Shown: positions 10,425 to 41,841, counted from the first letter of the whole stretch. The stretch: DNA of 63,986 nt, filler included, from Kipferlia bialata (GCA_003568945.1; 3 parts of 3 records of this genome joined end to end with filler, not necessarily neighbours in it); one strand, 5' to 3'. The notes: generated by a model not told the origin, from the letters alone. A program made the numbers and translations.

Positions 10425-10616
10425 GGGGGGGGAAGGCCCCGATGTTTCATATCGTGTATTTGTATTGTGTTGGCTGGTTGTATTCATTCATTACTGAACC
10501 ATCCAGTGTTTCTATACAGTTGCCGTAAATTGACGGTCGTGTTCGTGTTGGTTGCATATGAGAGTAGGGATATGGTCAATTACATACTAAAGCGACTGAG
10601 TCTCAAGTTGAGACTC

Positions 10617-16500: not shown

Positions 16501-18897
16501 GTCTTCTGCGTGCCTGTCACTAGCACTGACATCGAGTGTGTCACTCTCACACTCCCTACCACATATGGGGAAGAGGTATGTGTACCCACTCTTCTTCATA
16601 ATTCCCCCATTACCATGTTCTATCCTCCGGGCATCTCTCTCTCCCCCCCCCCCCGCCCCGATGTCAATTCAGCATATCTCGGGTGGGTAAATAGTGAATA
16701 CCTAATCGATGTGAGAGTAATATCAGAATTGTTGTGTTTAAATGTGTTCCAGTAGTCTATGTACGCCATATCTGCTGGAATCTCTCCCCCCTGTGTCTAA
16801 CTAGTATATAGTATTGGTACACTTATACACATATATATATTCTCTACCCAGACCATGGCCGCGGATAGTAGACATAGTAGATGTATAGTACAACGACTTC
16901 TACTTTTCCGTATACCTATATATTCTCTGCTAGTATATAGTATATAGTATAGTATTCCGATATATTCTCTACCCCCAGACCATGGCCGCCTCCCCAGCCG
17001 CTATCTCCCCCTCCTAATCGCTAAGAAGTGTATTACATAATATTCATTAGTACCTACTCTTATTCTCAGACTATGCAGGCTTCCCCAGCCGCCATCTCCC
17101 CCTCCTAATCCCTATGAAGTGTATTACTATCAATTCATAAGTGCCTACTCTAATTCTCAGACTATGCAGGCTTCCCCAGCTGCTATCTCCCCCTCCTTCC
17201 TCAGGGGTGATGAGTGTGTCACCCTCACAGTGGGCACACGTCTATACGTGACTAAGAAACGCTCTTTTGGCGGGGGAAGGCTCTTTGCGGCACACGAGAT
17301 GGACACGGGTGACTGGAAGGTGTGGCATATATGTACAGATGATCAGTTGAACAGTGTACTATAAAGGTCGAGTATGAAGAAGGTGATTCTGTTCATATCT
17401 GTGCCCAACTACAGGTAATGACCTGGTATAAGGGAGCGACCGACCCTGATCCATTCATTTGGGCCATTGGCGACTGCATATACTCGCTCGGTCTGGACAA
17501 GATCATGGGCCAACCGGGCCAGGCTGTGTTTAAGAAGTATGACACAGGTTCACGTGTGTGGACTGCGCTTGATCTTCCAGAGTATGTGGGTAGGCTTATG
17601 GGGACGCTCCAGGGGCCCAGTTCACGTCTGGTGACCGTTGTGAATGACGCTGCATATGTCATGATTACACATGTGGTGGACACTCGCTCTTCTGATCCTG
17701 ACCTGAGTGAACAGAGTGGCATTAGGTATGGGATTGCAACTTGTAAAGAATGATTTCTCTATGTGTGTTGACCTTGTTTGGGTAAATAGTGGCATCATTT
17801 TGACTCAGAAATTATGTAATCACATTTTGTATCAAATTGACGTTGCTGATATCAGGGGCTTCTTCTGCTACTCTCCTGTCAGCGGATGGCTAGACTTGAC
17901 AGACACTGTTAGACACACACTCCTCCATAGTGTCAAGCCGCGTACCTTTGCACACCATAGTGTCGCGCATGTGAAGCAGATACACAGGGCACTGGTCTGT
18001 GGACAGTACATTGTGTATGTGAGACCTACACCTAGGTGAGGATGGTTGATTATGTCGCATACACATCTACACGTATATATATACTATTATATGTACCTAC
18101 ACAAGTACACATGCATATATGTCTGCGAGAGACACTCCTAGGGGAATGTGGACTATATGGGGCACCTCAAGTGTATATATTTACTTACAAGTGTATTTAT
18201 GTACTCAATTCATTTCTGACACATCAAATATTCCCTGTGTTATCATTAGTCTACTACATACATTGTCTTTCCCACGATGGGTGTCCTGTCTATGACACTG
18301 TCAGTTCAGAGTGGACAGTGGCTACCATACCTATACATGTGTATATATGTATATATAGTAATATCAATAGTTGCCTTAACCTCTATCCTTACCCTAGCTT
18401 CCCTGTCTATGACACTGTCAGTTCTGAGTGGACAGAGTGGAGTGCGTTGGACATGCATGGCACACAGTTCACACAAGTAGGGATATGTACTATACATTTG
18501 GGTACATATATAGTGTATACTGAGGTGGAGTAGTCTGGGTGTATAGGGGTGCCTATTCACTCAGGTTGACAATATAGTGTATACCATACTATATGTAGAC
18601 ATTCATATGGAGGGACTAAAACACAGTAGTGTATACTGCCTGTTATGCTTAAGATTGTTGCACATATTTCGTTCCCATGGGTAAAGAGGGAAACGGATAC
18701 TCGTTTAGTGTTCACTATGTTCATTCGTTGTCCTATTGGCAATCTAAATCTCACTCTAGGCTGGGGACGGTCGCATTTTCTACGCTCAGACACCCACTAA
18801 CCAGAGCACGAAGCAGAGCTTCTCTCTGGCTGAGGTTGAGCCCTCCCTGATATACCCACACCCAGACGTGAGATGGGCTCTGAAGCACAAGTTATAG
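16501..18897 (+). CDS. Kelch-like beta-propeller protein
   Basis: Exons include VTLTVGTRLYV, WAIGDCIYSLG..KKYDTGSRVWT, ALVCGQYIVYV and FPVYDTVSSEWTEW. C-terminus LIYPHPDVRWALKHKL, TAG at 18895-18897. Confidence 0.65.
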
Positions 18898-19344
18898 GCG
18901 CACTATGTATACTATGGGTACTCTATAGTATGGGTGGGTTATATAGTATACCCACACCCAGACATGAGATGGGCCCTGGAGCACAAGTTATAGACACCAA
19001 TATACCAAATATCTTTGCCTTTGATATGTGTTATCTGGAGCCTCCAGTCTGCAGCACTATACTTTGCACCAAGGTGTTACTCTTCCCACATCCAAACTAT
19101 GCATCTATTCTCTATCTCTATGTGACATAATGTCTATGTTCTACATTATTACTGTGTCTAGTCGGCTGGACATGGTTGCCACTGTGATTGGATGGAGAGA
19201 TTCCACATGATCAGCTATGTGGCCGGCCAAGCCCTGTCCACTCGTTGAGGGACAGAACTAATATGTGTGACAGTATACTGATAGGATATGCATGTTTCTC
19301 ACCCATGGGTCTCCTACGGCAAATACGTCAGTCCTCTCTCTTAC

Positions 19345-20940
19345 TTAGTACTTCCGTGGAAGCATCAGCGACACCAGAGGCAGAATGCCCCACCTGACTG
19401 TCATAAATACTATGAATGGATATATTACATAGACACAAACACAGATGCACGTATTTACAACGCTGTATGAGTATGTGACTATACTACATATGCTTAGATG
19501 AGAGTGACATACCTCCTACCGCAGTCCGGGTACACTAGACCCCTGTCTATGTAGCCAAGTCGGTGGGGACACGACCTACAGTTTAGCTACATAATGGTTC
19601 ACTTCTAACGCACAGTAATGTCTCCATTATGCAAGGTTTCTAATTCATTAGGACTATACCGTATAGTACCTCACAACCAATGCTGGCTGGAATACACCAT
19701 CGACAAATGGCACAGAAGGTGTCTTGGCCATCTCACCACTGATGGTGTCATAGAGGTAGGTCTCCTGGCCGCAATTTGTGCACATACTAGGGGTTAGAGA
19801 TGTATGCTTTCTGTGCATCTGTGTAAAATGAGAACCACGGTGTTTATAGTTGTAAGAGAATGCAAGACCTAGATATGGCCAAGAAGCTACAACTTAACCC
19901 TATATGTAATGTCCATATGTTTACAATACTGTCCATACTCAATACTGGTATTCAAAATTGTGATCATTACCTAGATATGGCCAAGAACTGCCCAACAAGA
20001 TGTCGTATATACACTCTATGTGTTTGTGCATAGTATATTGAGTGAGTGAGACAGTGTCTCCATAGTATTGTGTAAGAGGATTCTATACCTCGAGATGGCC
20101 AAGAACTGCCCCACAGGCACTGTTGTGAGACTCATCCGAATGGAGTAGGGCACCACTCGTTGTGCTGATACAGTCCAGCCAGTGGTGTCGTCAAAGCACA
20201 CGACGGAGCCTGAGTCAGACATGGAATATAGTACTACTATATTCCATACTATATTATATGGTAGTCAATACTTCCTGTAACTTACAGGATGCAAGTTATA
20301 TATCACTGTATACATTTGAGGCAATACTTGGAGTGAGGTAACCTGACTCATCCACCCCATATGCTCTCTCCCTAATCACAGCAAGAGAGAGACAGTACAT
20401 GCTATCAAGGGCAGGGGTGGGGATGTCCAGGCGGATCCACGGTGTCTGAGCACTCTCAGACTCTCTCCATATAGGCGTCTCTGGATCATACACCCATGTC
20501 TGTGGGGCCATGACCACCTCCTCACCCCTTGTATCAGATATCACAACATAGCACATCCCCTTGAGTGTGAAGTAGTATGTCTCTCTCACTGGCTTGTCCT
20601 GGATCAGGTTGGGATAGGGCCGTACGGGTGGATACACACTAGTATTAGGGGCTGGCTCTGGATATACAGTGTCCCAGTGGGGTACGTGTCCGAGAGGTGT
20701 GTACTCTAGGCTACCCATGTCAAGTGAGGCAAAGTGCTCTTCACCATAGAGGTAGAGAGTGCCATTCACATAGAAGGTACACTTCGGGTTGATTATGGTT
20801 GTTCCGGGTGGCGTGTTAGGGGTTAGGTGTACTACGGGTCCCAGGGTGTTGTGTGTGACTGAGCCATCCTCTAACAGTCTGTGCACACAGAGACTCTGCT
20901 GTGACACCAAGAGGCTCTGAGATGTCAGGTCAGTCAGCAC
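19345..20940 (-). CDS. Kelch-like beta-propeller protein (start upstream, unresolved)
   Basis: Exons include FYVNGTLYLYG, TWVYDPETPIW, VPVGQFLAISR, YLYDTISGEM and GLVYPDCGRRWG; TAA at 19345-19347. Convergent with, and similar to, the plus-strand kelch-like gene. Confidence 0.65.
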
Positions 20941-22794: not shown

Positions 22795-22895
22795 TCAGCT
22801 GTGTTTGTCAGGGTACTCTCTCTCTCTCTCTCTCTTACCATTAGGTCCTCAGCTGTGTTTGTCAAGGGTGCACCCCCTAGGCATGAGGACAAGGG

Positions 22896-22938
<43 letters not shown>

Positions 22939-23394
22939 ATAAGTATACAGATATGTCTTACTATCAGATCTTCTGCTGTGTTTGTCAAGGGTGCACCCCC
23001 TAGGCATGAGGACAAGGGCCTTGGGGCACCCAATCTCTCTCTCTCCCTCTCCACATATATATAAGTACGTATTCTCACTATCAGATCTTCTGCTGTGTTT
23101 GTCAAGGGTGCACCCCCTAGACATGAGGACATTGGCCTCTCTCTCTCTCTCTCTCTACACAAATGAATGAATGTACATATACCTCTCACACTTAGGGCCT
23201 CAGCTGTCTTTGTCAAAGGGGCACCCCCCAGACATGAGGACAAGGGCCTGGGTGCACCCAATCCAAGGCAGATGGACATGTCAGTGCAGTTCATACGCTT
23301 TGTACGTGAATACTGTATATATACATATACATATATATTCCTCTATCTATACAACCCTAGGAACATGGACATGTCAGTCCAGTTCATACGCTTT
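22795..23394 (+). repeat. Exon-echo cluster: four acceptor-side partial copies and one donor-side partial copy of exon 23196-23301
   Basis: Copies of AG+(S/A)SAVFVKGAPPRHEDKG at ~22795, 22845, 22968 and 23085, each running into (CT)n. NPRNMDMSVQFIRF+GT at 23353. Confidence 0.95.
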
Positions 23395-23624
23395 GTACGT
23401 GAATACTCTCTTTCTCCTAAGTCTATATACTGTCCCCAATTCTCTCTCTCTGTGTCTAGGCATATACTGACCCTCAGATGCTTGTCCTGTTCATAGTTTA
23501 CCACCTCTCTCACTCTCTCTCTCACTCTCCCCCCCCCCTCTCTGTCTCTTTCTCTGTCTGTCTGTCTCTCTGTCTGTCTATGTCTCTCTTAACCCTCAGA
23601 TGCTAGTCCTGTTCATCGTGTACC

Positions 23625-23663
<39 letters not shown>

Positions 23664-26600
23664 AACTCCTCCTTGTGTGAGTATGAATATCGATACTTAC
23701 CCTCAGATGCTAGTCCTGTTCATCGTGTACCACCACTCCCCGCAGACAAAGATATGGAAGGTATATAGCAACCTTATACACGACAGATTCAAGTAGTATA
23801 TAATCATACAGAGTATAGATGTCCCTCTCCGTTACTCTCCGGTAACAAGTGTATATTCATTGTATTATATGTGTTCCACTATAGAAATGTTCTAACCCCC
23901 AGCGCACTGGTGACTGTTGGGACCACCTGCTGTATTATATATGTATTCATATATTCATACATATATACATGCGTATATATATATTCTATTTAACATAGAT
24001 AGATATACACATTGACTCCAGCGCACTGACGACTGTTGGGACTACCTGCCCTTCTACGGCACTACATTCTGGTGAGTCTCTCTCTATCTCACTCTCTCTC
24101 TACTATTCTGGTGAGTCTCACCGTCTTGTCCCCCTACGTTAGTTCTATTTGCTTCACAGTAACAGTAATTGGAAACAGTATGAAGACAATGACCTTTACA
24201 CCCAGGTATGCGTTCAAGGACGGCTGTCACATTGTGATTGAGGCATTCCTTCTGTTGACAGGGTACCTTCTGGTCCAGAGCAGCCTCCGCCGCAGACCCA
24301 CAGCTCTACCCATGTGTACACACTCACTCCGGTAGGATACATGTATAGTCATATACGCTGTATGATATACAATACTATAAGTGAATGAATTACATCCATA
24401 CCCTTTATTCACTTAAGTATATATTAATTAAATATATATTAATTAAGTATATATTCAATATAGTATGCAGAGCCACTGCACTACCCATGTACACCCACTC
24501 ACTGCGGTACAGTATATACCATATACACACATATAGTATGTAATCCTATGTGAAGTAGTAATCATTGATGTGCATACTGATAATAGTGGTACAAGTAATG
24601 GGCTTCGTAGCAATTCGTTTGTATTTCTTTCTCTTACCCCTATCTTTGTGACTCTTGAGCACTTCCCAGTCCATGACCAGATACTATGCGTACATATCTA
24701 TACATACAAGTATGCTATTCTAAATCTATTTCACTATTCAATTTGTTCCCTTACCCTAGCTATGTAGCCCTTGAGCACTCCCTGGTCTATGTGCAGAGAC
24801 TCTTTAGGCTGTGGCTGCTGGGATTCATAGTGCACCTGATGAGGTAAACTGACATTCCAGAGTCATTTCTGATACCGATACTGTAACTGAATGTAGTCAC
24901 GTTCGTATATGACACTATTTACAATGTATATATGAGGCTTAGAGTAAAAGTACTTTGTGGACCTATCTGATGACAGGAATGGAGATGACATCCTATCCTG
25001 GCAGTTCTGGGGTGCCATCGTTGGAGCAGATGTATATACATAGGATTCATAGTTACCACTTACTACTATAATGACTCACTCTAGAAATGGTGATGAGATC
25101 CTATCCTGGCAGTTCTGGGCTGCCATTGTAGGAGCAGATATATGTATTTGTATATATATGTATCATCATAGTATGGTGTATTATCGTCTCACTCTAGGAA
25201 TGGAGATGATATCCTGACCTGGCAGTTCTGGGGTGCCATTGTGGGTGCCGATACATCTATATATATATATGTATCATCTATGTATCATCATAGTATGGTG
25301 TACTTGCGTCTCACTCTAGAAATGGTGACGAGATATTGACCTGGCAGTTCTGGGGTGCCATCATTGGTGCCGATGTCACTGGCAGCAGGACATGGTACCT
25401 GGGGATGGATATGCTTAATACAATGGTACGATGCCATAGCAGCAACAGTACTATATACATATATGTAGTAGTTATATATATGTAGTAGTTATATATATAC
25501 ACATGTGTTGGTGCCGATGTCACTGGCAGTAGGACGTGGTATCTGGGCATGGACATGCTCAATACGATGGTGAGTATATATATATATATATATATATATA
25601 GTAGTTGTATTTGTTATATGATGCATATATATATGATGTCATCAGTAGCAGAACATGGTACCTTGGGATGGACATGCTCAACACTATGGTACGATGTCAT
25701 ATTATGTAGTTCTTAGGAGACTGACATTGTGTTACTGGATTTACAGCATAATACGAGGACATGGACGATAATACTAATTATAATGATGTACTATTTTCCT
25801 GTCATTTATCTCACTGGTCCCCTCCCTGTCTTAACCTCATGCTAGGCCAATCTGCCTTTGATGCTCACTCTGGCAAGGCGTATAGGACCAGGTATTTGCT
25901 GTTGGGGCATTGGGCAGTAACATACCTATCCCTATATATCAATATATATGTGTGTGATGCATAAGGAGATGTTTTTGTGTGTGTGTATTCATACAACAAT
26001 GTCACAAGGGGAGAGAGACAGACTAACTGTGCAGGCAAGGCTAAGGACGGTTACCTCCGCCCAGTATCTCTGTGGCGCTACCTACCCCTTGCCCTACCTG
26101 CACTGTTTCTTGAAGTGGCTGCAGCGTGGTTCTATGTGAAACCCAAGGGAACACTGCCATACAAGGTACTCATTGACATACTCTATATAGGTGTGTAGAC
26201 TATACCCCTTGCCCTACCGGCACTGTGTGTGGAGATGATCACTGCTTGGGTGTATGTCAAGCCTAGAGGGATACTACCATATAAGGTAACTATGTATAGG
26301 ATATGTGGTATATAGATCATATGTATACTATACCTGCACTGTGTGTGGAGATGGGTGTGGCATGGGTATACGTGAGACCTAGAGGAACACTACCGTACAA
26401 GGTACTTGAATTACTCAACAGTATATATATATATATGGGGGGGGGGTCCTACCTGCACTGTGTGTGGAGATGGCCACTGCTTGGGTATATGTCAGACCGA
26501 GAGGAATACTACCCTATAAGGTATTACTAGTTGGCATACCATATGCATAAGTACACTCTACCTGCACTGTGTGGAGATGGGTGTAGCGTGGGTATAAATC

Positions 26601-29099
26601 AAGCCTAGAGGGATACTACCATATAAGGTAACAATATAGAGAGTAATGTATATACTATACATATACATATACATATATATATGTGTGTGCACCCTACCTG
26701 CACTGTGTGTGGAGATGGCCACTGCTTGGGTATATGTGAGACCCAAGGGTATACTACCATATAAGGTACCTCTTGCCCCTCTATATATGCAAACTATACA
26801 CGCACTGTGTGTGGAGATGGGTGTAGCATGGGTATATGTCAGACCAAAGGGTATACTGCCGTACAAGGTACGTATATTGTAAAGTACTTGTACTATATGA
26901 ATATGTATATGCCCTACCTGCACTGTGTGTGGAGATGGCCACTGCTTGGGTATATGTCAAGCCTAGAGGGAACACTGCCTTACAAGGTGACTCAATTTCT
27001 CTTATTATCTTACTACACCCACCAAGGTCAGTATTACTTACAAATTGACTCAATACATCTAGTATTGCTACTACAGAGAACATTTAAGTATCGTGCACTG
27101 ACTATTAGGTCCCTTACAAGCACTTCCTTTCCCTTGGTCTGGTCGTCATAATCAACAAACTTACAATATATACATTAAAAACATATACATTGTATATGTA
27201 ACTAGTACTTGTATATTCTAATTCTTAGGTCCCCTACAAGCACCTCTTCTCCTTTGGCCTTGGGGGTGCCATGGGGGCATACAATATATACATATATACA
27301 TATATATATATATACATATATATGTCATCTATATATATATACTAGTACATAACCTTCAGGTCCCCTACAAGCACCTCTTCTCCTTCGGTCTGGGTGGAGC
27401 CATGGGTGCATACAGGCACTACAACACAGTGGCAAGTAAGGCAGAGAGAGAGAAAGCGCAAGTGGTAGAGAGTGTGCCTGAGGATTGCAATACCACCCTT
27501 AACCCGACACCATCTGTCCTTCGGTGTCTGTGGGACACACTCATGTGCATAGTCTGGGTATCAGTGCTAGTCTCTATACCCTTCCTAGCATACACTGAGC
27601 GCACTAACGGTACATCAGTGCCATACCTGGTGTCTCTACTAGGGGTGGGCCCAGTGTGTGCCATACTCTATCTAGTGCTCCTGCACCTGTTCCTCCACAC
27701 TAGGCACCTGCAGCCCATGCGGTATGCACTGTCACTCTCACAGTGGGTGGCCAAGGTAACATTTCTCTCTCTCTCTCTCTACATCCTCTCTCATCCACCG
27801 TACCATATACAGCTGTATATATATATCTGTCTACACTCATGTTCCTCACAGTGGGTGGCCAAGGTATCATACCTTTCTCATTCTCTCTACACCCCCTTTC
27901 ACCCTCTTTCTAGTTCTTCCGCGTTGTATTTCCCTCTCCACCTTGCCTCTCTCGCTACATCCCTATTCCCAAGGTCGCCGCGTTGTCGTTCCCTCTGTAC
28001 CTTGTGTACCTTTCTTTCTCTCTCTCTCTCTCTCTCTATCTACACCCTTACTATTAGGTTGCCGCTCTCTCTTTCCCTCTGTACCTTGTGCACTGGGAGC
28101 TACCCCTTGCTGACCCTGGCATCGATAGTGACACTGGCATACAGTGGAGACCACTGCTTGATGTATCCATAGTATTAGGTATGTATATGTATGCATGTGT
28201 ATTCTTATAGAGAGAGAGGGAGTGAGAGAGACTTTCTGAGGGACACTGACATACAGTGACCACTTTTGGAGTATCCGTTGTGCTAGGTATATATGTATAT
28301 ATGAATGTGTGTTTATATATTGGCAGATAGGGAAAGGGAGTGACCCTGGCGTCCAGTGGAGGCCCTTACTCGATATCTCAATAGTCCTAGGTAGGTTTCA
28401 ACTAATATGAATGATAGGAAGTGAGTATTGTCTGTGTTGAACCCCCAACTGCAGGCGGACTCGCCCTAGAGATACGCTTTGTCACCTTCTTCTGGGGTCT
28501 GATTAATCTAAATACTCATAATGTGGCATTGTTTTCCATTACGGTATAGTATAATATTATTATACATTGCTAATGATAGGTGGACTCGCCCTTGAGATAC
28601 GCTTTGTCACCTTCTTCTGGGGTCTGCTCAGCCGGACACTTGGACACCACATCAAATTGAAGGTAATATTAGGTCACGTATCAGTATATATGAAATATAT
28701 TTTGAATGTATATGTATTGGTCGGCCGCACGCTTGGTCACCACATCAAACTGAAGGTAGAATTAGGTTAAGTATCAGTGTATATGTAGTATATATCGGTA
28801 GTATATTCTATCGGTACCAGTTTAATGAACAATTATTCTTGTTTAGGTAACAATATATACGTGTACTATAACGTCCCACAATGTATAGTATACATACTAT
28901 ATACACTTATTGGTCAGCCGCACTCTTGGACACCTTATTAAGTTTAAGGTATGAGATTGATGATATTAGTCGACTATTTAGCATCACTCACTTGTTCTCT
29001 TCAGTGAAACTATGTAGTAATCGCTTCTGATAACAGGTCAATATGCCGGAGTATTGCCCTCCAGAGACCGCGAAACCATCCAAGCACAGTGTCGTCTAA
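23196..29099 (+). CDS. Acyltransferase-3 (OafA/Acyl_transf_3-like) membrane protein; 5' end in or before the gap
   Basis: Spliced reading gives QFIRFMLVLFIVYHHS (R..H helix 1), IVIEAFLLLTGYLL (F.LSG motif), QRLFRLW, TWYLGMDM, KHLFSFGLGGAMG and LSFPLYLVHW (SY.LYL.H motif). Several hydrophobic helices; TAA at 29097-29099. Confidence 0.8.
24977..25688 (+). repeat. Exon-echo cluster: three acceptor-side and two donor-side partial copies around exon 25320-25425
   Basis: NGD.IL.WQFW.AI.GAD copies at 24977, 25085 and 25198. DV..SRTWYLGMDMLNTM+GT copies at 25507 and 25635. Confidence 0.95.
26202..26986 (+). repeat. Stack of seven donor-side exon echoes (PALCVEM..AWVYV.P.G.LPYK+GT)
   Basis: Seven ~70-85 nt copies of the 3' half of exon 26035-26165, each ending AAG|GT and separated by dissimilar AT-rich spacers. 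Confidence 0.95.
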
Positions 29100-29585: not shown

Positions 29586-29685
29586 NNNNNNNNNNNNNNN
29601 NNNNNNNNNNNNNNNNNNNNNNNNNNNNNTTAATTAATTAANNNNNNNNNNNNNNNNNNNNNNNNNNNNNNNNNNNNNNNNNNNN
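29586..29685. other. Artificial contig-joining linker (N + TTAATTAATTAA + N)
   Basis: Six-frame stop spacer at 29630-29641 inside a 100-nt N block; the same structure recurs at 59242-59341. Confidence 0.95.
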
Positions 29686-29754: not shown

Positions 29755-30930
29755 GTAGGGAGGGTCTTATTGACACTGCCGTTAAGACTGCCACCTCTGG
29801 ATACTTCCAGAGATGTGTGACTAAGGTATGCATCATCTATCCATATATAGTTGTATATATACGTATATTTATTAGTACATACTTACCCCCAGGGCATTGA
29901 GTCTGCCGTTGTTGCCTATGACGGCTCTATATATAGTTATATATATATATACGTATGTCAATTAGATTACATATTTACCCCCAGGGCATTGAGTCTGCTG
30001 TCGTTGCCTATGACGGCTCTGTCCGTAACGACGATGGCTCTATCCTACAGTTCCTGTACGGAGGAGACGGCCTGGATGTGTCCAAGACATCCCTCCTCCA
30101 CGACATGCGCTTTGCAGCTGAGAACTACCAGGGCCTCATTGCCAGGTATAGATATATATATATTATTCTTTATATATATAATGTGTTTATGCTTATGCTA
30201 TGTGTATACTTACCCCCAGGCACATGCCCCCTGCCCACCAGATCGGTCTCCTCAACGGCAAGCTGAGCAAGGACACCACTCTGCCCCCCCAGGTACTCTT
30301 TCTCTCTCTCTCTCTCTCTCGTCATCTATGGTTGATTAATATGTGACTCACCCCCAGTACACTAACAGCCCCTACACCTGCATGGGAGCCGTGTCCGAGG
30401 CATACACCGCCAAGGTAATCTCTCTCTCTCTCTCTGCTTGTGTATGCCTATTAGTATATACATATTTGTCTCTAAATACACCTCACCCCTCAGGTCACTG
30501 AGTTCATGTCCAAGGCCTCCATCAAGAAGGATGCCGATACCGGTATCATCGCCAAGAAGGTATATAACCCTATATTTATCATTTATATATCAGTATATCA
30601 TCTGATATTTATCATTTATATATGTATATGTGTGTATATATATAGTGTTATGTACTGACTCCCCAGGGCCAGGAGCACAAGTTCGGCAGGCCCACTCTGT
30701 CCAAGAACGAGTTCAAGGCTCTCGCAAACCTGAGGTAACACAGCTGCATGTCACACAACATGTTCTCTCAATTCTCCTAACATGCTCTATAGTCTTATCC
30801 CCCAGGTACATGCGTGCCCTTGTCGAGCCCGGTGAGTCTGTGGGTGTGGTTGCCGCCCAGGGTATCGGAGAGCCCTCCACCCAGATGACACTGTACGTAT
30901 ATTTGTATTATAAGTATATACATATCCCTA

Positions 30931-30975
<45 letters not shown>

Positions 30976-31793
30976 ACCCCCTTATCTCAGGAACACATTC
31001 CACCTTGCCGGTCACGGTGCCGCCAATGTCACTCTGGGTATCCCTAGGCTCAGAGAGATTGTCATGACTGCCACCCGTGCCCCCAAGAGCCCCCTCATGA
31101 CACTGTACCCTCCTGTCGGGTGCAAGAACCCCATCCAGGTACAGTGTGTATATATATGTGTGTGCCTCAGTATGTGTGATGTAATAGTGCCTAACTGTCA
31201 GGTCCTGACCAAGCTGGGTGCCGCCCTTCGCCGTGTGCCCCTGGCCTCTCTCGTGTCCAGGTACAGTATAGTATAGCATAGGCCATGTAGCCCCCAACAT
31301 ATCTATGTACAGTATGCATTGTACCTTACCGCCAGGATCGGCATTGAGGAGAACGTCGTCATGGCTGGAAGGCAGTACAAGATCAGGCTCACCATCCCAG
31401 GTACACACTTATCTCTCTCTCTCTCTCGCTCTCTCTCTATAGAGACTATGAAATAGTCTGGTTCCCTTCTACATTTACCTCCAGGCTTTGTCGACAAGCT
31501 GCGTGACTTCGGTTGCACCGTTGACCAGGTAGGAGATGTCTGAACTATTATATAATTATTATATACATATATACTATACTCCATTGATACTCTCTTGATA
31601 CATCTGGGTCAGGAACTGTTCCTCTAGTCTTTGTCATATCTGTGTAATGATACAACTTCTGACCCCCAGGTCAGGAAGTGTGTCCTTGGCGCCTTCTGTG
31701 TCAAGCTTGACCAGATCATATCCAGGTCTCTCCACAAGGCCAGGTCCTCCGCCCTAGACGGCGCCATCACTGCAGGTAACCACAACCATTACC

Positions 31794-31835
<42 letters not shown>

Positions 31836-33374
31836 ATCTCTCTCTCTCTCTCTCTCTCCCTCTACACCCTTAACATCCAGGTGTGCAGATGCCGGATGTC
31901 TCTGCCGAGGCCGAGGCTGACTCTGGCGATGAGGAGCCAGTGACTGAGGAGACACCCGCCAAGAAGGCTGCTGTGGAGGACGACGAGGTACCTACAGTAA
32001 CACTCCATACTGTCTGGACTGTCTACACGTTGCTGTGTGTTGTTGTGACATGTTGTACTTACTCTCAGGAGGCCGAGGAGGAGGAGGACGAGGAGGAGGA
32101 GACTGGCTTCAAGGCCGAGGCCCTCGAGCTCAACGCAGAGGACATCATCCACCAGTGGTGCTCACACCTCTCCCAGGTACATATATACATACAGACATCT
32201 CTCGATAGATACTAACATGTATTGGTATAGTTTGTCTTACCCCAGGACCTCAAGATCCAGTTGGCCAGGGTCCAGAAGCACACATTCGTGTCTTCCATCT
32301 CATTCTCGTACGTCTGGATGTTACTCTCTTCTTCGAGATATACTAGTATACATGTAGTGGATGTATGTGCTTATCTGACCCTTCAGTATGGCTGAGAACG
32401 GTGTCGACGCCATCGCTTCTGTCTCCGCCATCCTCGGACTCAACGACAAGGTAACCGCGTAGTTTCCTATCATGTATCGCGTAAGTATGTAGACCTCTCA
32501 CTTTCAGGTCCTCATGGCTGCCAACGCTGAGGCTGCCGCAAGGCACGTGCTCGTCAAGGAGGTCCCAGGTATACATATGTGTTCCGATAAATATGTGTAT
32601 AATTAGTATATGTGGAATGTATATGAAGTATACTTATATCCAGGCATCTCTGCCTGTTACATGATGGAGAGGCCAGGCGAGGAGGCCTGCATGCAGACAT
32701 CTGGGTGCAACCTGGCTGCTGTCTTCTCCCTCCCAGGGGACCTGCTCGACCACAACAGGTATGCACATATATATGTGTATACTACTATCTATATACTACC
32801 AGCTGTATATATTCGTGATCTCTGACTCCCTAGGATCCAGACCAACCACGTTGCCGAGGTGCTGCGTGTGTTTGGAGCAGAGGCCGCATTCCAGGTACAT
32901 ACAGTGCATATGTTATTAATATTAATTATAGTGTGTAGTAGTGGTAATATACACCATCTCACCGCCAGGCCATTGTCAACGAGGTCTCTGGCGTGTTCGG
33001 TGTCTATGGTATCGACGTGAACGAGAGGCACCTCTCCCTCATCGCTGACACCATGACACACAACGGAGCTTACCAGGTATCAGTATACTATCTCTCACAC
33101 ACACACTCTACCAGGTATACTTACAACACTTTCTCTCTCTCTTGCGCCTTGTTTCTCCCTCTCTCACCCCCAGGGTATGTCCAGGCTCTCCATGCCCACC
33201 GCCACTCTCTCCCCCCTCCTCCGTGCATCCTTTGAGACATCCACCAAGTTCCTCTTCAACGCTGCTCTCTTCGGCGAGGTTGATAGCATGACGTCCCCCG
33301 CTGCTTCCATTGCATTCGGTGCACTTGCCAAGCACGGAACCGGCAAGTTCGACCTCCTGCAGAAGCTCGGATAG
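29755..33374 (+). CDS. RPA1: DNA-directed RNA polymerase I largest subunit, C-terminal part
   Basis: Bridge helix [32 protein letters not shown], Pol I-type trigger loop [31 protein letters not shown], an acidic expander-like insert, [26 protein letters not shown] and GTGKFDLL. No CTD repeats; TAG at 33372-33374. Confidence 0.95.
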
Positions 33375-33691
33375 ATCTAAAGGAACTATAGGGACTATAT
33401 AGGAGTTCCGGAAGCTTTAGATGGTAGGAGTACACGTGAATGTGTGACGACGTGTGACATGGGTTTAGTGTTGTACCCACCTCTTGTGTGTATGGGTACA
33501 GTACGTGTGGGTAGTGAGTGTGTCTCTCCGTTTAGTGTAGTGTCACAAGAGAGTTTATGAGAGGGTTCAGACTGTTCCAATAGGACAGAGAGCTGTATTT
33601 TTGCATATTATATCGTGCCGGAATAGATTGTTGAAGTGAGTTTGTTACTGCAGTGTTCAAAAACGACTTATTGTCTATTGCTAGCCACTGT

Positions 33692-36600
33692 CTATGCATA
33701 GTCCTCTGCAAACTCACTGAATGCATTGACGTGTGTGGTGACTGCCTTGGCCAATGCTTCACAGCCCAGGCAGGAGAGATGGTCCCTGGGATAAGAAGGG
33801 TTACGGTACAACAATACTATAAGGAATAGTATCGCACTGTCAGTCCAAGTAAGAAAGCATGTATATATGTGAAATAATACAAATATGACTGTACCTCAGT
33901 CTCTTGAGTACCCCATGTTGGAACCTTCTGGTCTCGCCCTCCTTATCTCTGGGGGTGAGACAATAAATAGAATCACTATATGTTTATGTATATTCGAATA
34001 CATGGGTGTGAGGGTATGGTAAACTGTTGTAAACAGTTGAAGTGCCACAGAGCCATGCTAGGCCAAGGTCGCATGTGGTGTGTTACAATATATGAAAGAA
34101 CACACTCTGGAATACATCAATAGGCCTATGCCTACCTCGGTCTATACCCCATCTCTGCCCCCTTGAGTCTCTGGGCAATCTCGGCAGCGAGGTCTGGGTG
34201 GTCAGATTGACATAGCGAGAGTCAGATTGATATATGTAGTAATAAATCTACTCAAAAATACAAATGCTCTGTCTACCTTCTCATGTATACGTGTGACTGT
34301 GAATGACATCAATACATATTTATACCTTTGGGACCAGTCCCTGTGGGTATGGGTACTCTCCCTGTCAGCACACCCACACATAAACATAGGGAGATAAATG
34401 TATATACATTTATATATACTATATATATATACTAATACATATACCTTTATGGTCTGTCCCAGCTGGTATGGGCACCCCCTCTCTCTCTCTCTCTGTCTCT
34501 CTCTCTATACATATATACTAATACACACATATATATATAATGAACATCATACCTTTATGGCCTGTCCCAGCTGGTGTGGGCACCCTCTCGGTCTGTCTCT
34601 CTCTCTCTCTATATATATACTATATTTCAGTTATGTATATGTATATATATGATACATACCTATATGATCTGTCCCAGCTGGTATGGGCACCCTCACTCTG
34701 TCTCTCTCTCTCTCTCTATATATATATACTAATACACACAAATACTATATAATATTACCCTTATGGTCTGTCCCAGCTGGTATGGGCACCCTCTCTCTCT
34801 CTCTCTCTCTCACTATNNNNNNNNNNNNNNNNNNNNNNNNNNNNNNNNNNNNNNNNNNNNNNNNNNNNNNNNNNNNNNNNNNNNNNNNNNNNNNNNNNNN
34901 NNATATATACCTATATGGTCTGTCCCAGCTGGTATGGGCACCCTCTCTCTCTCTCTCATTCTCTCTCTCTCTCTCTCTATATATATACTTTATGTCAGTT
35001 ATATATATATATATATGATACACACCCTTGTGGTCACTCCCAGCTGGTATGGGCACCCTCTCTGTCAGTATGCACAGTATAGTCTCTGTCACAATGTCAT
35101 CACTGGTGTCGGCCATCACTACACCACGAAGGGTGTCTAGCTCAGACCTAAGGGTGAGCAAGTATACATAGCATGTAGAGTAAATACATATAGTGTATGA
35201 CTGTGTACATACATATATATATTATATATATATATATATACTATAATAGTAATTAGTGTCTGCCATCACCACATCCCCGAGTGTGTCTAGCTCTGACCTG
35301 GTATAAGAATGAGGTATGTATATATATGTATATATAATGAATTCACTCTTCTATTCTTCTGCACACTATTCTAAACACTCTATACCTTGACACTTGTGCC
35401 AGGTCGTGTCAAATGTGACTGCCCAGAGTATAATAGTCTCTATAATACATAATACATATATAATACATGCACTATTGTATACCCAATTATATACCCTATT
35501 CTACACACACCTTGTCACGTGTGCCAGGTCGTGTCTGATGTGACTGGCCAGGGTCACTGCCAGCCTCTGGGCAAGTTCATACCCGCCCATCACACACCTG
35601 GGATAAGGTATATATACATGTGTATATACTATTCATATCTGTAGAATACCCTTCTATTACGTACCCGCTCTCCATTTCCTCTTCCTCAGGGGGGGTCATG
35701 GACTCATACGCAGCAAAGACCTAGGATGAGTGGATGTCACATAGAGAGAGAGCAAACACCTAGATACACATAGGTATATATAGAAATATACACTATTATC
35801 TATCTGGTGGCGCCATGGCCTCATACGCAGCAAAGACCTGAGTTAGACAAATAGACAGATAGATACATATGCAGATGCAGATACACGTATAATTGTATAT
35901 ATACAGAGAGAGAGAGATTTTCACTATTCTCTATCAGGGGAGTCCATGGCCTCACCTAGTGTGGGTGTATGTCTTATATGCAAAGACCTAGTGTGAGGGT
36001 ATGTCATAGCTATACTTCACAAGTGAGTACCCACTATCTACTATAGTATACTACGGACACTCCTGCCCCCATACTAACACTCAACATCGTAAACATGAAG
36101 TGTGAGTGGATTTCATATACCTATACTTGATAAGGAGTACCCACTACACCATATACTATCTACATCATTATACTTAGAACACACCTGATTGAGTAAGAAT
36201 GGCCCCAGCTCCCCATACTCCCTCCCATACTCGATGTACGTGAGGTTGATAGCTGGGAAGCGTGTCCTCAGTCTATCCACAGTGGCCCTGAGACTAGGGT
36301 CCACTGAGGGGTCTAGGCCTAATACATAGTGCTGCTGCGTAGCTGTGGTGCTATTGAGCCTATCAGAGTTAGTCACGGTAGGTCAAGAGAGTCAATGATA
36401 GTCAATATACCTGTCAAAGAGAGAGAGGAAGTGAGGGTCCTCGAGTGTTCCGTTGCATCCTACAAACACTAGGGACTGCATACAATCACTAGTGGAGTCT
36501 GATGAATGTCCAGAGAGTAGACATGGGGATGTGTGTCCGGGTCTGGCTCTCTTGGGGGGGACGAAGGTGGAGAGGAACTGGGCGTGGCCTAGCAGTAAGA

Positions 36601-39600
36601 GTAAGGGAATGTATAGACATATTATTCGTACCCATAGTGATGCCCAATATGGGTAATAGAGGTGTCTAGGAACTAAGTATGGCCTAAGGGTGAGTGCAGT
36701 AATACTACGATTGTACGAAACAGTGCAGAAATGCCACAGGAACACACCTGAGCAGTAGCTGCGGTATGTGAGTGGGTATGTCACACCACTTGTGACACCG
36801 TGTAGGTGCACTACATCCATGAGGGCACACACACCAGACAGGTCAGACCCTACATCCGAAGGGAGACGTGTGGATGACTTGAGGACTGTCTCAACGACTC
36901 TGTCATAGTTGACGGTGGTGCAGACGGCCTAAGGTTAAACAAGTACTGATACACATTATACATATACAGCATACATAGTATATGGTATACACTACATATA
37001 CTATCTCCACCACTCTGTCATAGTTGACGGTGGTGCAGGCGGCCTGGGGTTAGATAAAGAAACAATAGGACTATATTATACTACACTAAATCAATATACT
37101 ATATCATACTTAACTACCATATCAAACAATCAGATTGTAATAGAGAATCAATACATCACTGTCCATATGCACATGTCAATCAATAACACATACCTTGGGG
37201 AATGATGCCATTGCATTAATGGCACTGCGCAGTGTGATGCATGCATTGCTGACAGGGATCTTGAGCCTCATGCGGTCGACAACGGACTCGAGGTACCTGG
37301 AATCAGTATAGTAGTAATGACAGTATTGTAGTAATGTTGTAAACAGAATGCATTAATTCTATAATGGGAGATACTCGGGGTGTGTATATAGTACACACCA
37401 CGTGTCACTGAGAATCCCCGTGGCCATGGCCATCTCCACCTATATGTAGTAATATATACACAGTATATATCCTTCTGGTATCTATATATATGTATATATA
37501 TATATATATATATGTTTGCTAATACCTTGTGTCACTGAGCATCCCCGTGGCCATGGCCATCTCCACCACCCGGGACCTGGCATGCACAACCTAAGGTGAG
37601 TATACAGTACATAATGCATATACGATATTAAGTAGATAGTTTATATAATAGGGTACTATATATATACAGTGTACTAATATCTCCACCACCCTGGACCTGG
37701 CATCCACAACCTGGGGGGAGTACACATATGTATATGTAGTAACAACACATTGGGATGAGTATACATATGTATCAGAGACACAACATATAGACACGCTAGA
37801 CATATGTTTATACCTCCTTGTCCATCATGTCCAGTGTGCATGGCAGGGGCAGGGGGCCAGGTCTGGTATCCAAGGCAGAGAGGAGAAGCCTGCTATCAGT
37901 ACCCAGTAACTAAGCACAGGTTATGGTATGTATATCGACAGGAGGAGTCTGGTAATTAGAGACAACTAGGTAGATAGGTGTCATAATAATACATGGAGGT
38001 AAAGTACACCATCAGCCCCGGTTCCCACCGCCCAGTACTCTGGGGTGTTATCATGCCTTAATACCAACAATATATATATATACAAATATATATACATAGA
38101 ACGAGGGTATCTATACTCATAGTATACCTAGCCTCTGTCCCTATTGCCCTGTACTCAGGTATGGTGCCATCCCTCAATGATATACTATATATATATATAT
38201 ATTCTTTTTACTATATACTATCAATACTCATTACTTAGCCTCTGTCCCCACTGTCCTGTACTCAGGTGTTGTGCCATTTCTCAATACCCTCTCTCATTCT
38301 ATATATATACACTATATATAGATATACTATATACCTAGCCTCTGCGCCCACTGCCCTGTACTCAGGTGTTGTGCCAGCTGGTATCCTGGTGAAGTCACCC
38401 AGTCTGTCCTTGACCTGGGATGAGTATGGTACATATGTACACACATGCACACACATATACATGAATATATAAAACTATCTGTGTCGTGGTAGAGTCACCC
38501 AGTCTGTCCTTGACCTGGGGGTCAGTGAAGGCATATATGGACATATATCAATGTATAATACACAGGCATATATGACTGCGCCAAAAATTATACAACCAGA
38601 CCCATAGAGTTGCGGTACCTGATACAGCATGTAGTCATCCTTGCTGTCCAGGGCCAGTATCATTTAGCAGATAGTGGATATAGTGTATATAGTATATTGT
38701 ATATATATATTCGTATCCATACCTGGTATAGCATGTAGTCATCCTTGCTGTCCAGGGCCAGTATCAGGGCCACCACAGTCTGTCTGTAGGCTAGGAGGAC
38801 CTAGAAAGTGAGATATACTATGAATTCTATACAAATAATTCAACTACATACTATACACATTCTGTATACTTTACACAGTCTGTCTATAGGCTAGGAGGAC
38901 CTGGAGGGTGAGTATAGCTCACACATCTTGGTAGAGTATCCTCAACAATAATGAATAGTTACATACATTGCCAGTAACTGTTATATACTCAATAATAGTA
39001 AAAACATTGCATCCATCTGTGTCCCGGTTGAAAACATTGAATATACAGCAGTTGACGAACTACTCTAATTTGTGTAGGATATTATGGTGTATTACCAGTG
39101 ACACTGCGTCCATCTGTGTCCCGTCCACTGTCTCAGTGACAGCTGCCTCCAGAATGGACTTGGCAACCTATGGGGTTAGGATAGGTATATAACCCAGATA
39201 TATAGACACACATATATATACATACACTATAGTAGTACATGTAATAGCTGCCTCCAGCATGGACTTTGACACCTAAGGTCAGACAAATAGATGTATATTA
39301 CAGTAGGTATATATCCACAGAAAGAGAGAGAGAGAGGTAATATATGACAGAGCTGCCTCCAACATGGACTTGGCAACCTAGAGGGTTAGAATAGAGATAC
39401 ATATATGGACTTGGCGACCTGGGGGGTAAGATAAGGAAAGATAGATCGGTAGAGCGGTGTATAGATATGCATATTTATATATATATCTCACAGCTGCCTC
39501 CAGCATGGACTTGGCGACCTAGTGGGTTAGATAGGGATAGACATATATATATGGATAGACAGAAATGCTGATACATATATCAACGGTGTTTGCCTCCCGC

Positions 39601-40754
39601 ATGGACTTGGCAACCTACAGGGTTAGAATAGGAATATAGATAGGCATATGTAGAGAGATAGTAATATGGATTATGTTAGATATGTTAGTATGGTCTCTGT
39701 CTCCAGCATGTACTTGGCAACCTGTGGTTAGAAGATTATATATATACATATTTATATATGCTATACTGAAAAAGTAACCTGGTAGTATGGTTAATATATA
39801 CTAAACCTACATCACACACCTTCAAGCACTTTGAGAATAGGAGTGGCCGAGTAGTAGGAACCAGGTCGGTGCTGTACCTGAAGTGAGTATAGCTCTATCA
39901 AAGACAACACAGCGTTGTCCAAGAATTCTACTTGACACATGCATCAACGTACTGCCTGTATGCGTTGTATATGGCAAAGCATGCATTGGCTAATGCTGTG
40001 ACCCTGGCAGTGGCCTGAAGAGTGCCCTCCTGGGGCATCTCTAGGGCTGACATTAGTATATACATACAAAAGAGGCCAATATATACAGAAGTGTATTTAT
40101 ATAGTGGATATGATATCAGTAAGTGATGGTGGCCTGAAAAGTGCCCTCATGTGTAATGGCCAGGGCTGGGTGAGTACGTATTCACAGATATCCAGATCAT
40201 ACAAGTATACTGTATATAGGATACCTAATACCCCCTTGATGTGGTTGAGTGCACTCCATGCCTCCATCAGGGGAAGTATATATATTTCGATATACTTATA
40301 TATGTATGTTTATATATGAAGTATATATATTTCGATATACTTATATATGTATGTTTATATATGTATATATATATATGCACGTATATGATATACTGAGTGT
40401 ATATGTATACATACTATACATGTATATACCTAATACGCCCTTCATGTGGTTGAGTGCACTCCATGCCTCCATCAGGGGTGGGGACTCCTCGGCAAGGGAG
40501 TACGTGATCTGGGGTGAGAGAGGGAAGATGGTAACACTGACAGATGGCAGATACACACACACCCTCTCTCGCTTTCCCTATATCTCTATACATATATGTA
40601 TATACACATACCCTGTTGCATGCCCCCTCCATCAGCTGTGCCCAGGGCAGGGTGTTCTCTCTCACTCACTCACTCTCTCTCTCTATACATATATATATAC
40701 GTATACATACTCTGTTGCATGCCCCCTCCATCAGCTGTGCCCAGGGCAGGGTGT

Positions 40755-40800
<46 letters not shown>

Positions 40801-41435
40801 GTATACCCTGTTACATGCCCCCTCCATCAGCTGTGCCCAGGGCAGGGTGTTCTCTCTCTATCTCTCTATATATATAGACATATATACATATACATATGAC
40901 ACACCCTGTTACATGCCCCCTCCATCAGCTGTGCCCAGGGCAGGGTGTTCTCACACAGGGCAGATGGAACGCCAGCTCCTAACGTAAGTGACCTACCAAG
41001 ATACAGTGAATAATACATGGTATAGAGTATACCGGGCAGAGGGGACACCGGCGCCTAGGGTTAGTCAATGCATGTTCTCTACACCATATTCATAGAGTAT
41101 ATAGAGCATGTATACTATTCAAAGTATGTATATATAGAGTATGTGTATATATACTATTTAGAGTGAGTATCACACAGGGCACAGGGGACACCACTGGAAC
41201 AGAATACATAGGCGTGACATAGCAAGGCACACTTAGTGCTAGCACATGGTCATGTCTGAATGCATCCATATAGTATATGTAGTATAGTATAGAGTACATA
41301 GTAAATAGTATATATATGAACACCTAGTAGTGCCATAGTATATATATACATACCTAGCACCAGCACATGGTCTGTGAGTGCGTGTCTGAATGCATCCAGC
41401 TCAGGGGGCACTTGGACCTCAGTGGGAAGGGCATC
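33692..41435 (-). CDS. SIR2-like (SIR2_2/FAM118-type) protein with a large insertion and a C-terminal extension; 5' end not found
   Basis: Exons splice to HVLVLGAGVPSALCENTLPWAQL ... CTTVNYDRVVE ... VVHLHGV ... YRSY ... SLVFVGCNGTLEDPHFLSLF ... HYVL ... YIEYGREYGELGPFL. Phases checked from 36928 to the TAG at 33692-33694. Confidence 0.8.
34323..34945 (-). repeat. Stack of about six donor-side echoes (ERVPIPAG.DHK+GT) in the SIR2-like gene
   Basis: Repeated plus-strand cccagctggtatgggcaccctct units with (CT)n/(TA)n spacers; the most distal copy is the most diverged (GRVPIPTGTGPK). Confidence 0.9.
39245..39724 (-). repeat. Stack of six acceptor-side echoes (AG+VAKSMLEAA) upstream of exon ~39094-39167
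   Basis: Six copies of plus-strand atggacttggc(a/g)acct-type sequence, each with its own acceptor and a different upstream intron tail. Confidence 0.92.
40607..40853 (-). repeat. Three donor-side echoes (ENTLPWAQLMEGACNR) of the SIR2 GAG-motif exon
   Basis: Three copies of plus-strand catgccccctccatcagctgtgcccagggcagggtgttctc, each running into (CT)n. Confidence 0.92.
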
Positions 41436-41462
41436 CTTAGAAGTGAGAAGGGTGAGAGAGAT

Positions 41463-41495
<33 letters not shown>

Positions 41496-41841
41496 TCGGG
41501 GTCTCAGTGAAAAGGGCATCCTGGTATTAGGACAGTGAGATTATTGGCATTTAGAGGGGGGTAGAGGAGGAGTGGAGAAAGGGAGAGATAGAGACTAGAC
41601 AAGAATAACAATACACTTAGCACTGCAAAATAGAAGAGATAGAAGGGGGGGGGGGGGGGGGGGGGTCTGAAAAAGGGAGAAAAAAAAACAATCCCAGTGT
41701 ATATACTCAATCTTGTCATCATGATATACATCCAATACATTTGCCTGTCATATTTCTATACATATGTGCTCACCACAGAGACTACCTGCAGCGTGAATGT
41801 ATCCATCTATGTGGATGTATATGTATATATGCTCACCACAG

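What the first reader, a model, noticed from the sequence alone, without database searches (positions are those of the whole stretch)
24977..25688. Upstream and downstream echoes are complementary halves: nested 'Russian-doll' exon replacement
Seen: the order is A1 A2 A3 [intact exon] B1 B2. All three A copies stop at ...GAD and the B copies start at (V)GAD or D. The same complementarity recurs elsewhere: 22968-23034 ends at GAPN and 23353 starts at NPR; 28455-28501 ends at WGL and 28717 starts at L-V-GRT; in the SIR2-like gene the ~37680 echo ends at VVE and the ~37438 echo starts at VEM. I saw no large overlap between A and B copies, although some pairs leave a gap. Inference: an exon was broken and a segment carrying a complete exon with both splice sites was inserted into the break, repeatedly. 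Only inserts restoring a whole exon would survive selection.
Basis: partly seen in the sequence, partly recalled or inferred. Interest (0 to 1): 0.87.

Follow-up and report, generated by a model that had tools for sequence, protein, structure and literature searches.

The report
Introns hoarding displaced exon halves
In this single-celled eukaryote many introns hold stacked half-copies of the neighbouring exon that differ from it mostly at silent codon positions, so they are likely leftovers of other working versions of the gene pushed aside by DNA repair, and the cell would have to ignore their intact splice sites.

Summary
The A1 A2 A3 [exon] B1 B2 layout is real and is one case of a window-wide pattern. 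I kept 93 exon-half echoes; all upstream ones are 5'-anchored and all downstream ones 3'-anchored. The host is labelled Kipferlia bialata.

The new result is that echoes differ from their exon mainly at synonymous sites: pN/pS 0.23 (bootstrap 0.17-0.30; focal exon 0.08). Simulated copy-then-decay gives 0.44-0.56 at matched divergence. So echoes likely come from diverged working copies, probably alleles; no close paralog was found.

Strict nesting is only partly supported. No overlap exceeds 13 nt, and A ends lie near B starts (P 0.02-0.07). But 21 of 35 echo-bearing exons have one type only, gaps reach 322 nt, and outer copies are not more decayed.

Best model: one-ended repair from a homolog, then unequal exchange. 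Echo splice sites score as well as the real ones, which implies the innermost pair is chosen (exon definition). No reads could be examined. Not found in print in 10 searches.

The parts
24977..25033 (+). Echo A1: 5' half of the focal exon with its own AG acceptor; spacer 25034-25084 follows
   Evidence: 81% identity to the exon, score 74; translation
25085..25139 (+). Echo A2: 5' half with acceptor CTCACTCTAG, ends at GAT next to a TA-rich spacer
   Evidence: 81% identity
25198..25252 (+). Echo A3 (innermost). Its upstream intron tail is 92% like the real exon's, yet the exon half has about 5.5 synonymous and 2.5 non-synonymous differences
25320..25425 (+). Intact exon (106 nt) used in the database protein P0001
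   Evidence: exact spliced mapping of P0001
25507..25569 (+). Echo B1 (innermost): 3' half plus GT donor, no acceptor upstream
   Evidence: 89% identity, pN 0, pS 0.55
25635..25688 (+). Echo B2: 3' half plus GT donor, begins at GAT after a TA run
   Evidence: 82% identity
23196..29099 (+). Host gene, 12 exons traced, 10 with echoes (32 echoes). Membrane protein resembling acyltransferase-3; its 5' end lies beyond the traced part
   Evidence: ESM Atlas feature score 0.95 to PF01757 clusters; no Pfam HMM hit
22795..23396 (+). Exon 23196-23301 with four A echoes (ends 20, 54, 68, 54) and one B echo (start 63)
26035..26988 (+). Exon 26035-26165 followed by seven B echoes and no A echo. The echoes share amino-acid variants that the intact exon lacks
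   Evidence: 45 of 55 informative site pairs incompatible
28453..28950 (+). Exon 28580-28662 with one A echo (96% identical, unrelated intron flank) and two B echoes
33690..41522 (-). SIR2-like-domain gene, 20 exons traced, 34 echoes, including six B at 34324-34951, six A at 39241-39723 and the A/B pair at 37397-37712
   Evidence: PF13289; P0003
48504..52514 (-). Arginyl-transferase (ATE1)-like gene, 9 echoes
   Evidence: weak ATE_N and ATE_C hits below cut-off
52739..59112 (+). Tubulin-specific chaperone D gene, 17 echoes, mostly B
   Evidence: PF25767
29891..29928 (+). The single A echo in the RNA-polymerase largest-subunit gene (2 differences, both synonymous)
   Evidence: gene name from motifs I recall, no Pfam hit on the exon tested

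Best explanation
The echoes are exon halves, each with one intact splice site, that differ from the intact exon mainly at silent sites; they are likely relics of other working alleles, displaced outward when a break was likely repaired from a diverged homologous chromosome at one end only. Inferred steps: (1) a break or collapsed fork in or beside an exon; (2) one end copies the homolog through half the exon, its splice site and about one intron's length of intron (spacer median 65 nt); (3) the extended end is joined back by end-joining at a few bases shared with a TA, CT or GA run, so the old half is left as an A echo upstream or a B echo downstream; (4) once an echo exists, unequal exchange between echo and exon halves on different homologs adds copies with the same end point, refreshes them with working sequence and shuffles variants; (5) selection keeps only layouts with one whole exon and no spliceable extra exon; (6) the spliceosome would need to pick the innermost acceptor-donor pair (exon definition). 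Some exons, the focal one among them, may have been hit from both sides at one preferred site, which gives the nested look.
For: Shown: pN/pS 0.23 over 93 echoes; mismatches at codon positions 1/2/3 = 98/78/299 in 1113 codons; innermost-only n=50, 0.23 (bootstrap 0.17-0.30); echo-echo pairs 0.24. Copy-then-decay simulation gives mean 0.44-0.56 and minimum 0.34-0.41 of 150 runs at pS 0.31-0.36. The same bias holds in TBCD and ATE1-like genes (0.21 each), which are usually single-copy (own knowledge). The only paralog of the host gene found is 42% identical and lacks the echo variants; none was found for the SIR2-like gene (weak search). The ratio stays 0.22-0.25 whether spacers are related or not, while pS rises 0.21, 0.31, 0.38 as spacer likeness falls, as for a pool of alleles of differing age. 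5 of 10 near-identical halves have spacers no more alike than background. One-sided exons are the majority (21 of 35); echo length is capped at 83 nt; end points cluster within arrays (61% of 92 pairs within 3 nt vs 16%). Dinucleotide runs continue across the joint more than at random re-aligned joins (1.14 vs 0.55 nt, P<1/300; innermost only 0.94 vs 0.56, P 0.043). Partner splice sites are missing (donor near 3 of 39 A ends, acceptor near 1 of 54 B starts). Using an echo site would break frame or add a stop in 88 of 93.
Against: No allele was seen. P0001 and P0003 each have one member and one contig, and a metagenome scan found no relative. The implied silent diversity (pS 0.18-0.24 in three genes, 0.49 in the host gene) equals or exceeds the highest eukaryote value given in PMC9305300 (about 0.2; passage). 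The microhomology signal is modest once arrays are reduced to one copy (P 0.043). A/B co-occurrence and closeness exceed independence slightly, which pure one-ended events explain only with break hot spots that I could not demonstrate. Three genes have no echo (0 in 75 exons) and one has a single echo, which is unexplained. Splice-site choice is inferred from database gene models, not from reads.
Confidence: 0.5

Rival explanations
1. Nested replacement: an exon breaks, and a fragment carrying a whole exon with both splice sites and both intron flanks, from a diverged copy, is captured in the break. Repeated events nest A and B pairs.
For: A/B co-occurrence is 14 vs 10.9 expected within genes (P 0.049). 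7 of 14 two-sided exons have A end within 10 nt of B start (null 3.7-4.1, P 0.04-0.07), and none overlaps by more than 15 nt. Focal A3 and B1 share a 12-nt overlap with one mismatch and a Val codon where the exon has Ile, like a target-site duplication. It also predicts the synonymous bias.
Against: 21 of 35 exons are one-sided; counts are equal in 5 of 14; gaps of 33-322 nt occur; there is no inner-outer gradient (P 0.31). It needs two non-homologous joins beside perfectly good homology (inference). One of the 14 two-sided cases rests on a B hit that lacks its donor (39004-39026).
Confidence: 0.2
2. Echoes arose as local tandem duplicates but stay under protein-level selection because they are used: spliced or template-switched into some mRNAs, or serving as gene-conversion or deletion donors to the exon.
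For: The synonymous bias, only 3 stop codons and 5 indel-bearing copies among 93, and undecayed splice sites fit continuing selection. The database model P0003 includes one 48-nt A echo as an exon.
Against: There are no partner splice sites (3 of 39, 1 of 54), and 88 of 93 would be frame-breaking. Most intron flanks are not copies of the real flank (7 of 39 and 9 of 54 above background). Selection through rare conversion needs a population so large that allelic diversity is high anyway (my argument, not a computation).
Confidence: 0.2
3. Assembly artefact: haplotypes or strains strung together at microsatellites.
For: The draft is gapped and microsatellite-rich, and no reads were examined.
Against: The joints run from mid-exon into intron sequence with only about 1 shared base on average, far below any assembler word length. 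Up to 8 distinct versions lie in tandem, whereas the published draft of this species is described as diploid, Illumina/SPAdes, about 150x, with no amplification step mentioned (PMC5874029 methods). Polarity is strict.
Confidence: 0.05
4. Plain tandem duplication of [intron end + exon half] followed by neutral decay.
For: It gives the right polarity and unit size (112 nt of intron per echo). Some arrays have clearly related spacers (28 of 179 pairs above the 99th percentile), such as 50365-50680.
Against: It predicts pN/pS of about 0.44-0.56; observed 0.23, and 0.25 even among pairs with related spacers. Flanks mostly diverge more than the exon halves.
Confidence: 0.05

Closest known systems
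Intron gain by tandem genomic duplication of an AGGT proto-splice site (PMC3443670 and PMC2891723, passages read)
   Same: Small head-to-tail duplication of exon sequence across a splice-like junction that leaves the mRNA unchanged.
   Different: There the duplicate becomes a new intron and copies start identical, then decay. Here no intron is gained: an existing intron grows, the copies show purifying selection, and flanks are often unrelated.
Microhomology-mediated break-induced replication / template switching, and one-sided invasion (PMC4888836: passages on MMBIR read; one-sided invasion seen only as a reference title)
   Same: Short templated duplications with few-base microhomology at the joint.
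   Different: Described there as rare rearrangements. Here about 100-nt events recur at more than half of the exons of some genes and would use a diverged homolog. The pathway itself was not tested.
Gene-end replacement by incoming elements (Rhs toxin-tip displacement, phage integration into tRNA genes, the fungal mitochondrial atp6 hybrid gene); recalled, and search found nothing
   Same: An incoming diverged working piece restores the gene and leaves the resident piece as a relic; repeated events build arrays.
   Different: No mobile-element gene or shared element was seen in the spacers (median 65 nt); this happens at many nuclear exons and on both sides.
Mutually exclusive or cassette exon clusters such as Dscam (mentioned in a PMC2397502 passage; details recalled)
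   Same: Tandem, synonymously diverged copies of exon sequence inside one gene.
   Different: Those copies are whole exons with both splice sites; these are halves with one site.
Silent gene-conversion donors (chicken immunoglobulin pseudogenes, Borrelia vls cassettes); recalled
   Same: Non-expressed partial copies beside an expressed one, with shuffled variants.
   Different: Found here in housekeeping genes with little amino-acid variety; no conversion activity was shown.

Membership tests
Intron gain by tandem duplication (proto-splice model) | The duplicated segment is bounded by GT and AG and becomes a new intron | tested here: not met
   Donor near 3 of 39 A ends, acceptor near 1 of 54 B starts. 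GT at exon start is not specific to A echoes (within-gene P 0.13).
Neutral tandem duplicate | pN/pS of about 0.5 or more between copy and exon | tested here: not met
   0.23 observed vs 0.44-0.56 simulated at matched pS.
Neutral tandem duplicate | Intron flank as similar as the exon part | tested here: not met
   Flanks above background in 7 of 39 A and 9 of 54 B; no correlation with pS.
Mutually exclusive exon cluster | Each copy is a whole exon with both splice sites and keeps the frame | tested here: not met
   One site only; 88 of 93 frame-breaking if the echo site is used.
Nested whole-exon replacement | A and B echoes paired one to one | tested here: not met
   21 of 35 exons one-sided; equal counts in 5 of 14.
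Nested whole-exon replacement | A end coincides with B start | tested here: inconclusive
   7 of 14 within 10 nt, P 0.04-0.07; no overlap above 15 nt, P 0.005-0.23; gaps up to 322 nt.
Nested whole-exon replacement | Outer copies more decayed than inner | tested here: inconclusive
   Inner more similar in 10, less in 6, of 19 arrays, P 0.31; true at the focal exon.
Microhomology-joined templated duplication | Short shared sequence at the joint | tested here: inconclusive
   Dinucleotide-run continuity 1.14 vs 0.55 nt (P<1/300, all copies) and 0.94 vs 0.56 (P 0.043, innermost); the donor sequence is unknown.
Microhomology-joined templated duplication | The donor is a homologous chromosome or allele | not testable with these tools
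   No genome, second isolate or reads were available. Paralog donors are unlikely.
Exon-definition splicing | The innermost acceptor-donor pair is used despite equally strong outer sites | tested here: inconclusive
   Echo sites score as high as real ones, and the database models use the inner pair at all 11 introns of P0001. No reads were seen, and P0003 includes one echo as an exon.
Gene-conversion donor cassettes | Variants move from the silent copy into the expressed copy | not testable with these tools
   Variant shuffling is present (69 of 98 site pairs incompatible), but direction and recurrent mutation cannot be separated.

The most novel reading that the evidence does not exclude
In this protist, exons are routinely swapped with versions from extremely diverged homologs by a repair route that leaves the old half-exon in the intron. 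A single genome then stores a stacked archive of up to eight past alleles per exon, introns grow and turn over by this route, and a reduced spliceosome in a short-intron organism relies on exon definition to skip dozens of perfect decoy sites. This would be a new mode of gene-structure evolution and would point to silent diversity at or above the known eukaryote record.
Probability: 0.4. Interest if true: 0.88.

Novelty: new variant of a known kind. Interest (0 to 1): 0.72.

Why it matters
If true, one genome would record the allele pool of its species, readable without population sampling. It would show a frequent homolog-templated repair outcome in a lineage with reduced machinery (87 of 174 spliceosomal proteins found, PMC6679479 passage). 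It would explain intron lengthening here: about 112 nt per echo, with median intron length 80 nt without an echo and up to 1194 nt with nine hits. It would also give a natural test of how splice sites are paired in a short-intron unicell, where intron definition is generally expected (PMC2397502 passages). In practice the echoes can mislead gene models (P0003).

Tried and rejected
No whole genome is held, so all statistics come from this window. No sequencing reads were examined, so assembly and splicing remain untested at read level. A metagenome scan for relatives found 27 pattern matches and none confirmed. Paralog donors: the one paralog found is 42% identical and does not carry the echo residues. 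Recursive splicing of A echoes through AG|GT: the raw enrichment (10 of 19 vs 8 of 45, P 0.007) disappears within genes (P 0.13) and is as strong for B echoes (13 of 26 vs 5 of 38), so it was rejected. An RNA-intermediate origin in which the spacer is a whole intron starting at GT: donors near 3 of 39 A ends, no more than controls at 6-13%, so it was rejected. My first microhomology test overstated the effect because alignments absorb chance matches; the re-aligned null halves it. Simple-repeat runs right at the break are not clearly commoner than elsewhere in these introns (0.20-0.25 vs 0.18). Pfam does not name the host protein. Dropped before counting: 5 of 98 hits (3 not anchored at an exon end, 2 CT-repeat matches); one exon of 2585 nt was not scanned; genes at 15.6-21 kb and 41.7-48.3 kb were left out because their frames were uncertain. 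Literature: 10 searches found no description of this pattern. The main text of the species' genome paper has no word starting with 'duplicat' or 'allel' (I read parts 1-2 of 6 and passages, not supplements). Earlier-finding look-ups by place and by relatives were empty.

Full report
Setting. The window is intron-rich eukaryotic DNA with GT-AG introns full of TA, CT and GA runs. A search with one exon returned a 100% identical protein that the database labels KIPB_001043 of Kipferlia bialata, a free-living fornicate. That protein maps letter for letter onto 12 exons and uses the intact exon 25320-25425, not its echoes. It has no Pfam hit but resembles acyltransferase-3 membrane proteins by language-model features (0.95). 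No genome or reads were available, so everything below rests on this window.

The observation. The focal layout is as described. Three 5' halves, each behind an AG, end at exon position 55-57. Two 3' halves, each before a GT, start at 44 and 52. To test it I traced eight genes (163 exons, 156 introns) and aligned each exon to its flanking introns, using a threshold passed by 0.9% of 5479 foreign comparisons. Of 98 hits, 93 were kept: 39 upstream and 5'-anchored, 54 downstream and 3'-anchored; none was anchored with the wrong polarity. Antisense hits (2) and non-adjacent hits (5 of 3372) are at background, against 88 adjacent hits at the same score. Echoes are uneven: 32, 34, 9 and 17 in the host, SIR2-like, ATE1-like and TBCD genes, 1 in the polymerase gene, and 0 in 75 exons of three other genes. 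Each echo adds about 112 nt to its intron.

Echo-exon differences fall at codon positions 1, 2 and 3 in the numbers 98, 78 and 299 over 1113 codons; pS 0.34, pN 0.078, ratio 0.23. At the focal exon they are 9, 2 and 35, ratio 0.08. One echo per exon side gives 0.23 (bootstrap 0.17-0.30), and echo-echo pairs give 0.24. A copy that decays beside a constrained exon gave means of 0.44-0.56, never below 0.34 in 150 runs per setting, at matched pS. So the echo sequences diverged while they were coding, or are still under protein-level selection. The intron flank attached to an echo is usually not a copy of the real flank (above background in 7 of 39 and 9 of 54), and 5 of 10 near-identical halves have unrelated spacers. 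Within arrays spacers are related to varying degrees; pS rises as spacer likeness falls (0.21, 0.31, 0.38), but pN/pS stays 0.22-0.25. Variants are shuffled among copies (14 of 21 site pairs incompatible at the focal exon, 69 of 98 overall; recurrent change may contribute). The only paralog found is 42% identical and lacks the echo residues, and the bias also holds in TBCD and ATE1-like genes. Alleles or homeologs are therefore the likely donors. This is an inference: no allele was seen, and the implied silent diversity reaches or passes the roughly 0.2 given as the eukaryote maximum in PMC9305300 (passage).

Testing nesting. Of 63 exons with both flanks in the four echo-rich genes, 14 have both types, 7 only A, 14 only B and 28 none (expected both 9.3, P 0.016; within genes 10.9, P 0.049). 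Inner A end minus inner B start is -9, 11, -322, -33, 2, -19, -2, -12, -7, -4, 9, -39, -33 and -12. Seven of 14 lie within 10 nt by medians (null 3.7-4.1, P 0.04-0.07), the median distance is smaller than null (P 0.02-0.04), and none overlaps by more than 15 nt (null 1.3-4.3, P 0.005-0.23). So there is a modest complementarity. Against strict nesting: 21 of 35 exons are one-sided, including one with seven B and no A; counts match in 5 of 14; echoes never exceed 83 nt, even at a 396-nt exon; and inner copies are not less diverged (10 vs 6 of 19, P 0.31). End points cluster within arrays (61% of 92 pairs within 3 nt vs 16%), and spacers have a median of 65 nt against 71 for plain introns. The focal exon is the best-looking nested case: A3 and B1 overlap by 12 nt with one mismatch and are the more exon-like copies.

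Splicing. Echo acceptors score a median of 6.3 against 5.5 for the real ones; echo donors 5.3 against 5.8; 87% lie above the 5th percentile of true sites. Partner sites are missing: a donor near 3 of 39 A ends and an acceptor near 1 of 54 B starts. Using an echo site would break frame or add a stop in 88 of 93 cases. The echoes therefore cannot normally be exons, and correct splicing needs the innermost pair to win. That is exon definition, which is unexpected where plain introns are about 70 nt (definitions and expectation from PMC2397502 passages). This rests on gene models; one model does include a 48-nt echo as an exon.

Mechanism. Shown: polarity, synonymous bias, foreign flanks, a length cap, clustered ends, one-site copies, and a modest continuity of dinucleotide runs across joints (1.14 vs 0.55 nt; innermost only P 0.043). 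Inferred: one broken end copies a diverged homolog through half an exon, the splice site and roughly an intron's length, then joins by microhomology, leaving the resident half outside. Unequal exchange between halves then multiplies and refreshes copies at the same end point, and selection removes any outcome with two spliceable exons (confidence 0.5). Two-ended capture of a whole exon (0.2) shares the diverged-donor element and may apply to some exons. Continued use of echoes (0.2), artefact (0.05) and neutral duplication (0.05) are argued in their sections. Artefact is unlikely because joints share about one base and up to eight versions lie in tandem, while the published draft of this species is described as diploid Illumina/SPAdes at about 150x (PMC5874029 methods); it is not excluded without reads.

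Comparison and novelty. Tandem duplication across splice junctions, microhomology-joined duplications and gene-end displacement are known kinds (the last recalled). An earlier AI note reports head-to-tail splice-junction copies in a sea-urchin gene (unchecked). I found no report of unspliceable exon halves carrying a purifying-selection signature at more than half the exons of ordinary genes, in ten searches; the library lacks most subscription papers, and I did not open supplements. Interest 0.72.

Noticed in passing
window 134-10424 (+): Helicase plus family-A polymerase gene resembling polymerase theta (PF00476 on the last exon; the name is my recall). This kind of enzyme does microhomology end-joining. 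The gene has no echoes in the exons scanned.
   Followed up: partly
window 1-15600, 29985-33374, 60112-62838: Three genes with no echo and one with a single echo, beside genes where most exons have them; the cause is unexplained.
   Followed up: partly
window 36996-37043 (-): An in-frame 48-nt A echo followed by GT is included as an exon in database protein P0003, giving a short internal repeat; it is either a real cassette exon or a model error.
   Followed up: partly
window 54619-54684 (+): TBCD exon that appears to end at a GC donor, while its B echo at 54731-54765 carries a GT donor.
   Followed up: partly
window 16852-17200, 18270-18320, 18947-18993 (+); 19865-20120 (-); 41752-42090 (+): Further echo arrays in genes whose frames I could not fix, left out of the counts. 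At 16979-17200 the synonymous pattern of the echoes points to a different frame than my gene finder chose.
   Followed up: no
window 50348-50685 (-): Four A echoes with closely related spacers (period 92-114): an existing echo unit re-duplicated in tandem.
   Followed up: partly
window 29586-29685 and 59242-59341: N-flanked TTAATTAATTAA linkers: the window appears to be three separate pieces joined by spacers, so neighbours across them are not linked.
   Followed up: no
3' ends of introns throughout: A branch-point-like motif sits only a few bases before the AG (consensus CTTACCCCCAG), like the fused branch/acceptor of diplomonads (recalled).
   Followed up: partly
window 23196-29099 (+): The host protein's nearest atlas clusters are mostly bacterial acyltransferase-3 proteins; one 42% identical paralog exists in the same species. 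Origin not examined.
   Followed up: no
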